DNA of 64,000 nt, taken from the NCBI RefSeq assembly GCF_009914755.1, contig NC_060936.1, one strand, 5' to 3'. Made by a program: the position numbers and the translations under genes. Positions 40,579-42,963 of this stretch are shown piece by piece; position 1 is the first letter of the stretch, and each line of letters opens with the position of its first letter. The notes beneath the pieces were generated by a model, which did not search any database, was not told the DNA's origin, and saw only the letters and a program-made list of their open reading frames with translations. This DNA comes from the human T2T-CHM13v2.0 reference genome, Homo sapiens.

Positions 40579-40701
40579 GATAATTTTCCTTAAACTACTA
40601 CCTTTGCTGCATCTCACTAGTTTTGATATGTAAAGAATTAAGTTCTAAAAATGTTTTAATTTTCATAATAATTTCTTCTTTGACTCATGAGGTGTGTGTG
40701 T
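40579..40701 (+). repeat. Arm A of perfect 123-bp inverted repeat
   Basis: Base-by-base reverse complement of 42841-42963. Confidence 0.95.
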
Positions 40702-40719
40702 GTAAATATATGGTATTTC

Positions 40720-41019
40720 CTTTTATTTTTCTGGGATGGGGTCTAACTGTGCTGCCCAGGCTAAAGTGCAGTGGCGTGATCTTGGTTCACTGCAACCTCT
40801 GCCTCCTGGGCTCAAGCAGTCCTCCCACCTCAGCCTCCTGAGTAGGTCGCTGGGACCACAAGCATGCACCACCACACCTGGCTAATTTTTTGTATTTTTG
40901 GTAGAGACAGGGTTTCACCATGTTGCTCAGGCTTGTCTCAAACTCCTGAGCTCAAGCAATTTGCCTGCCTTGGACTCCCAAAGTGCTGGGATTACAGGTG
41001 TGAGCCACCATGCCCAGCC
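40720..41019 (-). mobile_element. Alu
   Basis: Reverse Alu consensus. Confidence 0.9.
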
Positions 41020-41537
41020 TGGTATTTACATTTTTTAAACAGATACATAAGACTATTTTATTTTTTCCTTTTAATATAATTACATTATGAACTGAGAGTA
41101 ATAGTGTTTGAAATTAGTTGGAGGTTGTTTCCCCTTTTTCTGTTTTCTGCAGGAGTTCATGTTAGATTGGAATTATCTGACTCTTAAATGTTTAGTAGAA
41201 CTCATCTGCAAAGTCATCTGGGTCTCACATTTTCATCAAGGAGAAAAAAATCTCATTGTGTTCAAATTTTCTGATTAACTGACATAAAATTGTTTACAGC
41301 ATCCTTTTATCGTCTTAATCTCTGCATTATTTTCAATTAGGCCTCTTTTCTGTTAATAACAAATGTCTGTGTATATATTCTCTCTTTTTTCATTGATTGA
41401 CTTGCCAGAAGTATGTTTATTAGTCTTTTCAAAGAACTAGGTTTTTGCTTTATTGATTTACTGTATTGTATTTTCTGTTTCATTAGTTTATCCTATTATA
41501 CTCTTCCTTTTTCTTCATTTCTCTCTTTCTTGCCCTC

Positions 41538-41709
41538 TTTTTTTTTTTTAAAGAGAAAGGGTCTCGCTTTGTTGCCCAGACTGGAGTGCAGTGCTTTTCA
41601 CAGGTGTAATCATTGTGCATTATAGCCTGGAACTCCTGGGCTCAAGTAATGCTCTCACTTCAGCCTCTTGAGTAACTGGGAGTGCAGGCGCAGACCGCCA
41701 AGCCTGGCC
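41538..41709 (-). mobile_element. Alu right-type monomer (FRAM/FAM-like)
   Basis: Reverse monomer consensus. Confidence 0.8.
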
Positions 41710-41886
41710 CTTTTACTTTTCTCATGGGTCTTTATTTGCTGAACCTTTTTAAGGTTTGTATTTATTTTCTCAGTTATTATTTTTAAAGTTTTTTATTTAA
41801 TTTCTCAGTTATTATTTTTCTTTTCTGATATAAAAATAAAAGGTTGTAAAATTTCCTCTAAGTACTGCTTTACCTGCATTCTGTAA

Positions 41887-42306
41887 TTTTTTTTTTTTTT
41901 AATAGAGACAGGGATTCACTATGTTACCAAGGCTGGTCTTGAACTCCTGAGCTCAAGCAATCTGCCCAGCTTAGCCTCACAAAGGGATGGTAGGCATATA
42001 TATATATATTTTTTTTTTTTTTTTTGAGGCAAAGTCTTGCTCTGTTGCCCAGGCTGGAGTGCAGTGGCACATTCTCAGCTTACTGCAACCTCCGCCTCCC
42101 AGGATCAAGCGATTCTCATACCTCAACCTCTGGAGTAGCTAGGATTATAGGCACCCACCACCATACCCACCAATTTTAGTATTTTCAGTAGAGACAGGGT
42201 TTCACCATGTTAGCCAGGCTGGCCTTGAACTCCTGACCTCAAGTGATCTGCCTGCCTCTGCCTCCCAAAGTGCTAGGAATACAGGCATGAACCACTGCAC
42301 CCAGCC
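41887..42306 (-). mobile_element. Alu fragment plus full Alu
   Basis: Reverse consensus 41887-41985 and 42009-42306. Confidence 0.88.
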
Positions 42307-42413
42307 AGGCATAAATTTTTATATGTAGTGTTTTTATCTTTCAGCTCTGTGTATTTTCTAATTTCCATGATTATTATTTCTGTGACTCATGACCTGTTTA
42401 AAAATATGTTTTA

Positions 42414-42835
42414 GGCCAGGAGTGGTGGCTTATTCCGTAATCCCAACACTTTGGGAGGCTGAGATGGGTCAATTGCTTGAGTCCAGGAATTTGAAACCAG
42501 CCTGGGCAACATAGTGAGGCACTGTCTCTATAAAAAATTTAAAAATTGGCCTGGCGCAGTGGCTCACGCCTGTAATCCCAGCACTTTGGGAGGATGAGGT
42601 GGGTGGATCACCTGAGGTCAGGAGTTTGAGACCAGCCTGGCCGACATGGTAAACCCCGTCTCTGCTAATAACACAAAAATTAGCCAGGTGTGGTGGCGCA
42701 TGCCTGTAATCCCAGCTACTCAGGAGGCTGAGGCAGGAGAACTGCTTGAACCCAGGAGGAGGAGGTTGCAGTGAGCCGAGATCACGCCACTGCATTCTAG
42801 TCTGGGCGATGAGTGAAACTCCATCTCAAAAAAAA
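42414..42835 (+). mobile_element. Alu left monomer followed by full Alu
   Basis: Monomer 42414-42547, dimer 42548-42835. Confidence 0.9.
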
Positions 42836-42840
42836 TTTAT

Positions 42841-42963
42841 ACACACACACCTCATGAGTCAAAGAAGAAATTATTATGAAAATTAAAACATTTTTAGAAC
42901 TTAATTCTTTACATATCAAAACTAGTGAGATGCAGCAAAGGTAGTAGTTTAAGGAAAATTATC
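42841..42963 (-). repeat. Arm B of perfect 123-bp inverted repeat
   Basis: Reverse complement of 40579-40701. Confidence 0.95.

What the first reader, a model, noticed from the sequence alone, without database searches (positions are those of the whole stretch)
40579..42963. Perfect 123-bp inverted repeat of ancient L1 sequence, arms 2.1 kb apart
Seen: 40579-40701 is the exact reverse complement of 42841-42963 (123/123; after one mismatch TAAAT/ATTTA adds 5 more). The sequence is old L1, and a separate homologous L1 piece at ~41850-42395 is heavily diverged, so identity cannot be ancestral. Arm B starts right after an Alu tail at ATTTA microhomology, where the host Alu's right arm and further L1 would be expected. 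Inference: a recent deletion with inverted templated insertion (FoSTeS/MMBIR), or ongoing gene conversion. Possible consequences: a perfect non-Alu dsRNA stem in SRGAP1 pre-mRNA, a substrate for inverting the spacer, and a duplicated AP-1 site (TGACTCA 40681, TGAGTCA 42855; a third at 42383).
Basis: partly seen in the sequence, partly recalled or inferred. Interest (0 to 1): 0.8.

Follow-up and report, generated by a model that had tools for sequence, protein, structure and literature searches.

The report
Recent inverted copy of L1 fragment
A 129-base piece of an old L1 remnant in the first intron of SRGAP1 was copied backwards into a spot 2.1 kb downstream, next to an Alu tail, which is the kind of scar left by a known type of DNA repair or replication slip and has no shown function.

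Summary
40579-40707 is the reverse complement of 42835-42963 at 128 of 129 bases, with an exact run of 123. These are the only near-identical copies in the 3.1-Gb genome; the other 10 matches are 72-85% identical.

The sequence is an L1 ORF2 fragment from the endonuclease-RT linker. Arm A is the parent. It lies collinear inside a roughly 2.2-kb L1 remnant and ends 3 nt before the target-site duplication of an old Alu. Arm B is the copy. It sits between the A-tail and target-site duplication of another old Alu and single-copy DNA.

The two arms extend a pre-existing inverted Alu pair outwards into one 466-column inverted alignment. This fits a single fold-back or template-switch event primed at ATTTA/TAAAT, of the kind described in yeast and in cancer cells. 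Folding supports that Alu pairing only if about 2.3 kb or less was single-stranded.

Age is probably under about 15 Myr, from recalled divergence figures. No outgroup or pangenome data were available. The dsRNA potential is real on paper. The AP-1 sites are at chance level.

This is a new instance of a known kind of event, of modest interest.

The parts
40579..40707 (-). Arm A, the parental copy. It is an L1 ORF2 fragment (about aa 234-282 of a preserved ORF2, in the EN-RT linker), antisense on the + strand.
   Evidence: 128/129; tblastn aa 267-282 at 40631-40584, and aa 234-282 on the identical arm B. It is collinear with minus-strand ORF2 matches from 38472 to 40239; 3 of 8 family copies align 8-26 nt beyond 40579.
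42835..42963 (+). Arm B, the derived reverse-complement copy of arm A (L1 sense orientation). It is flanked by non-L1 DNA on both sides.
   Evidence: Family copies extend at most 4 nt beyond 42963.
40703..40707 (+). TAAAT, the template side of the 5-nt junction microhomology. It is the first TAAAT to the left of the Alu_1 T-tail.
   Evidence: (TAAAT at 40568 and 40703 only within 40500-40760).
42830..42840 (+). Junction. AAAAAATTTA (42830-42839) repeats the first 10 nt of the 16 nt that precede Alu_2, so it is probably a truncated 3' target-site duplication. ATTTA (42835-42839) is shared with the template. T42840 matches neither the duplication (A) nor the template (C expected).
40721..41020 (-). 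Alu_1, an old full-length Alu. Its T-tail abuts 40720. Target-site duplication: TGGTATTTCC at 40711-40720 and TGGTATTTAC at 41021-41030.
   Evidence: 81% to Alu_2; flanks printed; SRP-type Rfam hits at 40731-41018, minus strand; 2 CpG left.
42548..42835 (+). Alu_2, an old full-length Alu whose A-tail abuts arm B.
   Evidence: (84% or less to any full-length Alu in 38000-45000), (8 CpG left).
42413..42547 (+). Alu_3, an Alu left monomer plus an A-rich stretch into which Alu_2 is inserted. No right arm follows.
   Evidence: Alu-derived mir-1285 sub-threshold hit at 42464-42525.
38472..40707 (-). L1 remnant 1 (ORF2 aa about 687 down to about 234), interrupted by Alus. It contains arm A at its 5'-proximal end.
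   Evidence: HSPs at 38687-38472 and 38862-38782 (E 5e-7), 39424-39350 (E 0.35), 39797-39711 (E 0.012), 40239-40177 (E 8.5), 40631-40584 (E 4.8). All are on the minus strand and collinear.
41135..42410 (-). L1 remnant 2 (ORF2 aa about 485 down to 238), interrupted by Alus. It forms the spacer and carries the diverged homologue of the arm.
   Evidence: 41481-41245 and 41221-41135 (E 1.9e-7), 41886-41815 (E 0.69), 42410-42291 (E 2.5); collinear with family copy L007.
42964..43400 (+). Single-copy DNA to the right of arm B, the second junction partner.
   Evidence: 1 match in the genome, itself. (no nearby templated piece of 12 nt or more).
40579..41043 (.). Left half of the composite inverted repeat (arm A plus 19 extra nt plus Alu_1). 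It aligns to 42963-42525.
   Evidence: one gapped alignment, 466 columns, 82.6% identity.

Best explanation
Arm B is a one-off, evolutionarily recent reverse-complement copy of arm A, made during repair of a break (or a stalled fork) that lay just right of the A-tail and target-site duplication of Alu_2. The 3'-ended + strand that finishes in ...AAAAAATTTA folded back. It was probably held in place by pairing of Alu_2 with the inverted Alu_1. Its last five bases (ATTTA) paired with the first TAAAT outside the Alu_1 tail (40703-40707), looping out 17 template bases. A polymerase then copied arm A leftwards for about 124 nt, as far as 40579. The new strand unwound and was joined to the other end, at what is now 42964, and whatever lay between the two ends was lost. 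The result prolongs the old, imperfect Alu_1/Alu_2 inverted repeat by a near-perfect 129-bp outer segment.

Shown: the anatomy, which arm is the parent, the junction sequences, and the collinearity with the Alu pair. Inferred: the break, the direction of synthesis, the polymerase, the deletion and the date.

The element is a mutational scar with no demonstrated function. In SRGAP1 intron-1 RNA it is predicted to form a fully paired 129-bp stem containing one G.U pair.
For: (1) Only two near-identical copies exist in the genome, so no third source is possible (2 of 12 matches at 99% or more, 10 of 12 at 72-85%).
(2) Arm A is native. It lies collinear within a minus-strand L1 ORF2 remnant (with a query ORF carrying Exo_endo_phos and RVT_1). 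3 of 8 family copies align 8-26 nt past 40579, against 1 of 8 that goes 4 nt past 42963. Arm A ends 3 nt before the target-site duplication of old Alu_1.
(3) Both flanks of arm B are foreign to L1: the Alu_2 tail and single-copy DNA.
(4) The junction shows a 5-nt ATTTA/TAAAT microhomology, and the 10 nt AAAAAATTTA equal the start of the 16 nt preceding Alu_2.
(5) The arms are in near-register with the Alu_1/Alu_2 pairing: position sums 83542 against 83561-83567, a 19-25 nt offset. Gapped blastn merges everything into one 466-column inverted alignment whose outer end is exactly the arm boundary. The crude chance of a template start lying 25 nt or less outside one of 7 inverted-Alu tails is about 0.04.
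(6) In the MFE fold of ssDNA 40500-42840, 247 of 293 Alu_2 positions pair with Alu_1, and the A-tail (42831-42836) pairs with the T-tail (40730-40725).
(7) Alu_2 is old: 84% or less to other full-length Alus, with 8 CpG left. The arms differ at only 1 of 129, so the event long postdates the Alu insertions.
[quoted passage not shown] Divergent inverted Alus mediate fold-back of broken ends in human cells (PMC3834830, passages).
(9) No second templated piece follows arm B.
Against: Alu_1 is not the thermodynamically preferred partner of Alu_2. By DNA duplex energy it ranks third of 6 upstream inverted Alus: -239.3, against -280.7 for the Alu at 39425-39711 and -256.8 for the Alu at 38101-38391. 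When 38000-42840 is folded, Alu_2 pairs with the Alu at 39425-39711 (262 positions) and not with Alu_1.

A nearer inverted Alu (42031-42311) was passed over. The 3' end had to skip 17 template bases. The first copied base is wrong (T instead of C). The tail coincidence (about 0.04) was computed after the fact.

The evidence that arm A's outer edge is native is modest: 5 of 8 family copies stop at or inside the edge, and protein comparisons across the edge are not significant. No ancestral allele was available, so the break, the deletion and the second junction's microhomology are unobserved. A replicative template switch gives the same product.
Confidence: 0.55

Rival explanations
1. A replicative template switch without a double-strand break, either FoSTeS/MMBIR-type or a long-range version of the 'four-point' template-switch mutation of type 3-2-1-4. 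The nascent strand left its template at about 42839, re-annealed by ATTTA on the complementary strand at 40703-40707, copied to 40579 and returned at 42964, skipping some ancestral sequence.
For: It gives the same product, the same microhomology and the same order of switch points. Type 3-2-1-4 'creates an inverted repeat' and made up 31% of high-confidence human-chimp events (PMC5453318, passages). It does not depend on which Alu pairs with which, so searches do not weigh against it.
Against: The published model covers short-range switches within a fork, and its authors state they do not model long-range switches; here the jump is 2.1 kb. MMBIR often chains several templated pieces, and none was found beyond arm B. 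On its own it does not explain why both ends lie at the tails of an inverted Alu pair, unless that pairing also guided the switch, in which case the two models merge.
Confidence: 0.3
2. An old 129-bp inverted duplication kept identical by repeated gene conversion between the arms.
For: Identity of 128/129 despite old surroundings. The arms lie close together on one chromosome.
Against: Identity falls to random level at both outer boundaries, with no diverged homology beyond them (16/80 outside). Conversion would therefore have to cover the whole duplicate every time. At 129 bp the arms are short for efficient mammalian conversion (general knowledge, not tested here). This reading still needs the same templated insertion as its origin, so it changes only the date.
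Confidence: 0.07
3. An assembly artefact in this genome, with arm B not present in the real DNA.
For: No second assembly or read set could be consulted. Scans of prokaryotic and viral contig sets for the junction found nothing, which was expected and is uninformative.
Against: The structure is small (2.4 kb) and well within single long reads. There are no N runs in 40400-43200. Both junctions are clean, and one shows a biologically sensible microhomology at an Alu tail. Assemblers do not typically invent a 129-bp inverted copy flanked by unique DNA (inference).
Confidence: 0.03
4. A by-product of retrotransposition: an L1 twin-priming inversion, or 3' transduction of the flank by an Alu.
For: Arm B follows an Alu A-tail directly. 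Arm A lies 13 nt beyond the tail of Alu_1 on the opposite strand, so arm A is the 3' flank of an Alu.
Against: Alu_2 is not a copy of Alu_1 (81% identity, with different 3' ends and tails). No second A-tail or target-site duplication follows arm B. The spacer is antisense L1 plus Alus, not the sense L1 that twin priming requires. The arms are far younger than either Alu or the L1.
Confidence: 0.02

Closest known systems
Local fold-back templated inverted insertions at double-strand breaks, a hybrid of Pol delta synthesis and end-joining capture (yeast; PMC11724301, passages read)
   Same: A reverse-complement copy of sequence next to the break. Priming occurs at a pre-existing inverted (micro)homology, followed by a short synthesis tract; the published range is 2 to about 150 bp and this one is about 124-129. 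The copy is captured by the other end, and the net effect is a longer inverted repeat.
   Different: The published cases use a 10-bp inverted microhomology with a 41-nt loop. Here the presumed clamp is a roughly 300-bp diverged Alu pair with a loop of about 1.5 kb (2.1 kb between the arms). This is a germline event in a human intron. No genetics are available, and the second junction cannot be read without the ancestral allele.
[quoted passage not shown]
   Same: A resected 3' tail anneals intra-strand between two nearby inverted, diverged Alus and primes synthesis.
   Different: There, synthesis runs on and yields palindromic sister-chromatid fusions and amplification. Here, synthesis stopped after about 129 nt and the chromosome was restored.
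Short template-switch mutations under the four-point model, type 3-2-1-4 (PMC5453318, passages read; related titles PMC7954356, PMC8794818 and PMC10710096 seen only in the listing)
   Same: A single switch-and-return event with the 2->3 fragment copied in reverse complement. The order of points is 3-2-1-4, and it creates a perfect hairpin-forming repeat de novo.
   Different: The range is 2.1 kb rather than local, the copy is 129 nt, and sequence may have been lost. The authors excluded long-range switches from their model.
FoSTeS/MMBIR complex rearrangements (named; otherwise from general knowledge)
   Same: Microhomology-primed, low-processivity copying from a nearby template.
   Different: Those are usually kilobase- to megabase-scale and often multi-step. 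Here there is one small step and no further templated piece.
Inverted Alu pairs in introns (bioRxiv 10.1101/2024.12.07.627371, abstract start only)
   Same: Intronic hairpin-forming inverted repeats that give dsRNA in pre-mRNA or lariats.
   Different: Alu pairs are typically 70-88% matched in this window. This stem is 129/129 paired and not Alu-derived, but it sits directly on top of an Alu pair.

Membership tests
Fold-back templated inverted insertion at a break | The inserted tract is the reverse complement of sequence nearby on the same chromosome. | tested here: met
   128/129, 2127 nt apart, with no third copy in the genome.
Fold-back templated inverted insertion at a break | A pre-existing inverted (micro)homology next to the junction places the 3' end on the template. 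| tested here: inconclusive
   ATTTA/TAAAT at the junction, and Alu_2/Alu_1 in near-register. However, Alu_1 is the MFE partner only when about 2.3 kb or less is folded, and with 4.8 kb another Alu wins.
Fold-back templated inverted insertion at a break | The product lengthens an existing inverted repeat. | tested here: met
   One 466-column inverted alignment, 40579-41043 against 42963-42525, with the perfect part outermost.
Fold-back templated inverted insertion at a break | The second junction is made by end joining with 0-5 bp of microhomology, and the ancestral allele shows a simple break site. | not testable with these tools
   No outgroup or alternative haplotype is available. The right flank is single-copy.
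Four-point template-switch mutation, type 3-2-1-4 | [quoted passage not shown] | tested here: met
   3 = 40579, 2 = 40702-40707, 1 = 42835-42840, 4 = 42964. Definition.
Four-point template-switch mutation, type 3-2-1-4 | Short range, within one replication fork. | tested here: not met
   The jump is 2.1 kb, and the authors exclude long-range switches.
LINE-1 (identity of the copied sequence) | Collinear homology to an ORF2 with an APE-type endonuclease and reverse transcriptase, plus dispersed diverged copies. | tested here: met
   The reference ORF has Exo_endo_phos at aa 6-214 and RVT_1 at aa 501-757. Collinear minus-strand tblastn series are strong for neighbouring segments (E 5e-7 and 1.9e-7) and weak for the arm itself (E 0.25 and 4.8). 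10 dispersed copies at 72-85%. Direct Pfam and PDB searches of window ORFs found nothing. The subfamily was not determined, as no repeat library was available.
L1 twin-priming inversion | The inverted segment is contiguous in L1 coordinates, the spacer is sense L1 of the same element, and the arms are as old as the insertion. | tested here: not met
   The spacer is antisense L1 of another copy plus Alus. The arms are 99% identical, while other L1 copies are 85% or less.
Alu 3' transduction | The Alu upstream of the transduced flank is a copy of the source Alu, and a second A-tail and target-site duplication follow the flank. | tested here: not met
   Alu_2 and Alu_1 are 81% identical. No A-tail follows 42963.
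Conversion-maintained palindrome | Homology extends beyond the perfectly identical tract, or the arms are long enough for efficient conversion. | tested here: not met
   Similarity is at random level outside both outer boundaries. The arms are 129 bp.

The most novel reading that the evidence does not exclude
The event is specific to the human lineage, and possibly still polymorphic. It would then be a natural germline example of an inverted Alu pair 'growing' outwards by fold-back synthesis. In one step it created a perfect, non-Alu, 129-bp dsRNA stem in intron 1 of SRGAP1, a neuronal migration gene. That stem could be hyper-edited by ADAR, processed into small RNAs, or affect processing of the 300-kb first intron. 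If such outward growth of Alu pairs is general, it would be an unrecognised route by which imperfect inverted repeats mature into long perfect hairpins.
Probability: 0.15. Interest if true: 0.6.

Novelty: new member of a known kind. Interest (0 to 1): 0.35.

Why it matters
The locus is a clean, fully readable example in a normal human genome of a repair or replication error otherwise known mainly from yeast reporters, cancer genomes and short-range comparative scans. A single switch-and-return event copied about 129 nt in reverse complement across 2.1 kb.

Its position, prolonging an inverted Alu pair exactly from the two Alu tails, suggests that diverged Alu pairs can guide where such copies are taken from, and that they can lengthen into perfect hairpins.

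If outgroups show it to be human-specific or polymorphic, it would be a convenient natural test case for two questions. One is what a perfect long intronic dsRNA does in vivo: editing, small RNAs, lariat stability. The other is whether short perfect inverted repeats promote spacer inversion.

There is no evidence that it affects SRGAP1, and the most likely status is a neutral scar.

Tried and rejected
A scan of 61 stop-free ORFs from 36047-43253 gave 0 of 61 with any family over its cut-off.

(2) phmmer of three short minus-strand ORFs against PDB sequences gave 0 hits at E up to 10.

(3) BLASTP of the two open stretches that cross, or lie just outside, arm A's outer edge against the preserved ORF2 gave no alignment (E up to 100) and best E 3.5. 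I therefore do not claim coding homology across 40579. My by-eye reading of such homology, and my by-eye comparison with a remembered L1 sequence, are not used as evidence.

(4) I suspected a tandem array left of arm A. TRF finds none in 40250-40750, so I dropped the idea.

(5) Genome queries straddling each outer boundary found only the two arms and no family copies. This is uninformative about the family.

(6) Exact scans for the arm B/unique-DNA junction in prokaryotic genome contigs and viral contigs, hoping for stray human DNA, found 0 and 0. This is uninformative.

(8) Rfam at E up to 1 over 40000-43500 gave 19 matches, all Alu/SRP-type or Alu-derived miRNA families below their gathering scores, and none on the arms.

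(9) The AP-1 idea was rejected: 8 TGASTCA sites in 64 kb against 8.8 +/- 3.3 expected, with 63 of 100 shuffles reaching 8.

(10) Twin priming, Alu transduction and a third source copy were rejected, as set out under rival explanations.

(11) A search for a second templated piece after arm B found one 11-mer. This is the same as controls, where 26 of 40 random stretches gave 11-12 nt.

(12) Literature searches for this locus found nothing on it. The query 'SRGAP1' + 'inverted repeat' + 'intron 1' returned 10 listed papers, none containing SRGAP1. The query also returned nothing on this locus. Supplementary event lists of PMC5453318 and PMC7954356 were not opened. If the event is human-specific they could in principle list it, though their methods target short-range clusters.
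Full report
OBSERVATION. The repeat finder lists arms 40579-40707 and 42835-42963, 129 nt, 99% complementary, with 2127 nt between them. A direct comparison gives 128 of 129 matches. The exact run is 40579-40701 against 42841-42963. It is followed by a single mismatch, G40702 opposite T42840, and then five more matches, TAAAT/ATTTA. 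Outside the arms, ungapped similarity is at random level: 16 of 80 on the outer side and 23 of 80 on the inner side. Genome queries straddling each outer boundary match the other arm exactly up to 40579 and 42963 and no further. In the whole 3.1-Gb genome the arm finds itself and its partner (E 2.9e-59 and 4.7e-58). The other 10 of 12 matches are 72-85% identical on other chromosomes. The longest other exact self-match in the window is 40 nt, and no self-match of 100 nt or more exceeds the 90-92% identity bin. This is not chance, and there is no third, younger source copy.

WHAT THE SEQUENCE IS. Direct Pfam and PDB searches with the degraded open stretches of the window gave nothing (0 of 61 ORFs). 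I therefore took a preserved element from the same genome, L015. Its 1120-aa open frame carries Exo_endo_phos at aa 6-214 and RVT_1 at aa 501-757, which is the L1 ORF2 layout. I ran it by tblastn against 38000-45000. Two collinear minus-strand series appear.
- Remnant 1 runs from aa 687 at 38472 through 38862-38782 (E 5e-7), 39797-39711 (E 0.012), 39424-39350 and 40239-40177 (both weak) to aa 267-282 at 40631-40584.
- Remnant 2 runs from aa 485 at 41135 through 41481-41245 (E 1.9e-7) to aa 238 at 42410.
- Arm B matches aa 234-282 on the plus strand (E 0.25).
The arms are therefore an L1 ORF2 fragment from the linker just after the endonuclease domain. The evidence for the arm alone is weak (E 0.25 and 4.8). 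It rests on collinearity with strong neighbouring matches and on the dispersed family copies. The L1 subfamily could not be determined.

WHICH ARM IS THE PARENT. Arm A lies where collinearity of remnant 1 puts it. Three of 8 family copies align 8, 24 and 26 nt beyond its outer edge, whereas at arm B only 1 of 8 passes the edge, by 4 nt. The other 5 copies stop at or inside the edge on both arms. Arm A's inner end is 3 nt from the left target-site duplication of an old minus-strand Alu (Alu_1, 40721-41020; TGGTATTTCC at 40711-40720 and TGGTATTTAC at 41021-41030). That junction is therefore as old as that Alu. Arm B, by contrast, is a 129-nt island of sense L1 between the A-tail of another old Alu (Alu_2, 42548-42835) and DNA that is single-copy in the genome. 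Protein comparisons across arm A's outer edge were not significant, so I do not use them. Taken together, arm A is the template and arm B is the copy.

THE JUNCTIONS. Alu_2 is inserted into the A-rich stretch that follows an Alu left monomer (Alu_3, 42413-42547). The 16 nt before Alu_2 read AAAAAATTTAAAAATT. After the Alu_2 body the sequence reads AAAAAAAATTTA and then runs into arm B. Either the 3' target-site duplication is the 16-mer, cut after its first 10 nt, or it is the 7-mer AAAAATT and is complete. In both readings the switch lies within 42835-42840 and shares 2-5 nt (at most ATTTA) with the template. Base 42840 (T) fits neither the duplication (A) nor the template (C expected). It is either an error at the first copied base or a later change, and it lies at the end of a (GT)n run. 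No right arm of Alu_3 follows. So either sequence was lost or Alu_3 was always a free monomer, and this cannot be decided without an ancestral allele. The outer junction (ATC|CCTTG) shows nothing recognisable, and the first 47 nt after it contain no further nearby templated piece beyond what controls give.

GEOMETRY. On the plus strand the order is arm A, 19 extra nt, Alu_1 (reverse), spacer, Alu_2 (forward), arm B. The two Alus form an inverted pair, and the arms prolong that pair outwards from the two Alu tails. The position sums are 83542 for the arms and 83561-83567 for the Alu pairing. Gapped blastn reports a single 466-column inverted alignment, 40579-41043 against 42963-42525, at 82.6% identity, whose outer limit is exactly the arm boundary. 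A crude after-the-fact estimate of a template start falling 25 nt or less outside one of the 7 upstream inverted-Alu tails is about 0.04.

MECHANISM. The simplest account is a fold-back.
1. A break just right of the Alu_2 tail was resected.
2. The 3' strand ending in ...AAAAAATTTA folded back, with Alu_2 annealing to Alu_1.
3. The terminal ATTTA paired with the first TAAAT outside the Alu_1 tail. One search finds TAAAT only at 40568 and 40703 within 40500-40760. Seventeen template bases looped out.
4. About 124 nt were copied, as far as 40579.
5. The new strand unwound and was joined to the other end.

This is the hybrid mechanism described for yeast breaks: inverted microhomology, Pol delta synthesis, capture by end joining, tracts of 2 to about 150 bp, 'longer inverted repeats are formed' (PMC11724301, passages). 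Divergent inverted Alus are documented to mediate fold-back of broken ends in human cells (PMC3834830, passages). In the four-point notation for template-switch mutations it is a 3-2-1-4 event, the class that creates inverted repeats, but at a range the authors did not model (PMC5453318, passages).

LIMITS OF THE FOLDING SUPPORT. The folding support is conditional.
- In the MFE of ssDNA 40500-42840, 247 of 293 Alu_2 positions pair with Alu_1, and the tails pair with each other.
- By duplex energy Alu_1 ranks only third of six candidate partners.
- When 38000-42840 is folded, Alu_2 pairs with the Alu at 39425-39711 instead.
- A nearer inverted Alu (42031-42311) was also not used.
A purely replicative template switch would leave the same product. 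I therefore give about 0.55 to the break-and-fold-back version, about 0.3 to a replicative switch, and about 0.85 to the two together, meaning a single templated inverted copy taken from arm A.

AGE. Alu_2 is at most 84% identical to any full-length Alu nearby and keeps 8 CpG. Alu_1 keeps 2. A fresh Alu has roughly two dozen CpG; that figure is recalled. The arms have no CpG, are 27% G+C and differ at 1 of 129, so the copy is much younger than either Alu. This rules out an origin during Alu_2's own insertion. I used recalled pairwise divergences: human-chimpanzee about 1.2%, gorilla 1.6%, orangutan 3.1%, macaque 6.5%. Seeing 1 difference or fewer in 129 nt has probability 0.54, 0.39, 0.09 and 0.002 for duplications of those ages. 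Under a flat prior, the chance that the event postdates the human-chimpanzee split is 0.46 if the mismatch is a later substitution and 0.78 if it arose at the event. 'Recent' thus means probably under about 15 Myr and possibly human-specific, but this is untested.

OTHER RIVALS.
- Gene conversion of an old duplicate is not excluded, but it has no diverged flanking homology to work on, and it still needs the same origin.
- An assembly artefact is unlikely for a 2.4-kb structure with clean junctions and no N, but no reads could be inspected. The junction scans of other collections were empty and are uninformative.
- Twin priming fails because the spacer is antisense L1 of another copy.
- Alu transduction fails because Alu_2 is not a copy of Alu_1 and no second tail follows.

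CONSEQUENCES. Both arms lie in intron 1 of SRGAP1, on the sense strand according to the hub annotation.
- As RNA the arms give a duplex of -204.9 kcal/mol. In the MFE of 40579-42963, all 129 positions pair with their mirror partner, and the mismatch becomes a G.U pair.
- Inverted Alu hairpins are common in human introns and are normally degraded (bioRxiv 10.1101/2024.12.07.627371, abstract start only). What sets this stem apart is only its perfection and its non-Alu sequence.
- Whether it is edited, diced or of any effect is unknown.
- Rfam finds nothing on the arms.
- The duplicated AP-1 heptamer is real but carries no weight: 8 sites in the window against 8.8 expected.

VERDICT. The deletion, the date and all functional consequences remain inferences. 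This is a new instance of a known kind of mutational event. Two literature searches aimed at this locus found nothing on it. The supplementary event lists of the template-switch papers were not opened. Interest is modest at 0.35. It would rise if outgroups show a human-specific or polymorphic event, or if outward growth of inverted Alu pairs proves to be general.

Noticed in passing
window 38472-41105 and 41135-42410: Two L1 ORF2 remnants lie side by side in the same (minus) orientation and overlap in ORF2 coordinates: aa 687 to about 234, and aa 485 to 238. They are either two insertions, one nested in the other, or an old partial duplication. The junction is near 41105-41135.
   Followed up: partly
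window 42413-42547: An Alu left monomer with an A-rich end has a full-length Alu inserted directly after it, and no right arm follows. It is either a free left monomer or a dimeric Alu whose right arm was lost in the event studied here.
   Followed up: partly
window 41746-41815: A 35-nt tandem duplication (2 copies, 89% identical) inside L1 remnant 2 (family D11).
   Followed up: no
window 40753-40812, 42046-42105, 42464-42525, 42681-42732 and others: Sub-threshold Rfam matches to Alu-derived miRNA families (mir-3135, mir-1285, mir-1268) inside the Alus. All are below their gathering scores and are consistent with ordinary Alu sequence.
   Followed up: no
window 38000-44300: There is a dense cluster of Alus. 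At least seven are in minus orientation upstream of Alu_2, and another minus-strand Alu lies at 43991-44274 downstream. Many alternative inverted pairings are therefore available, and which pairing wins in folding depends on how much of the strand is folded.
   Followed up: yes
window 36962-37005: A short perfect tandem repeat gives the longest exact self-match in the window other than the arms, at 40 nt.
   Followed up: no
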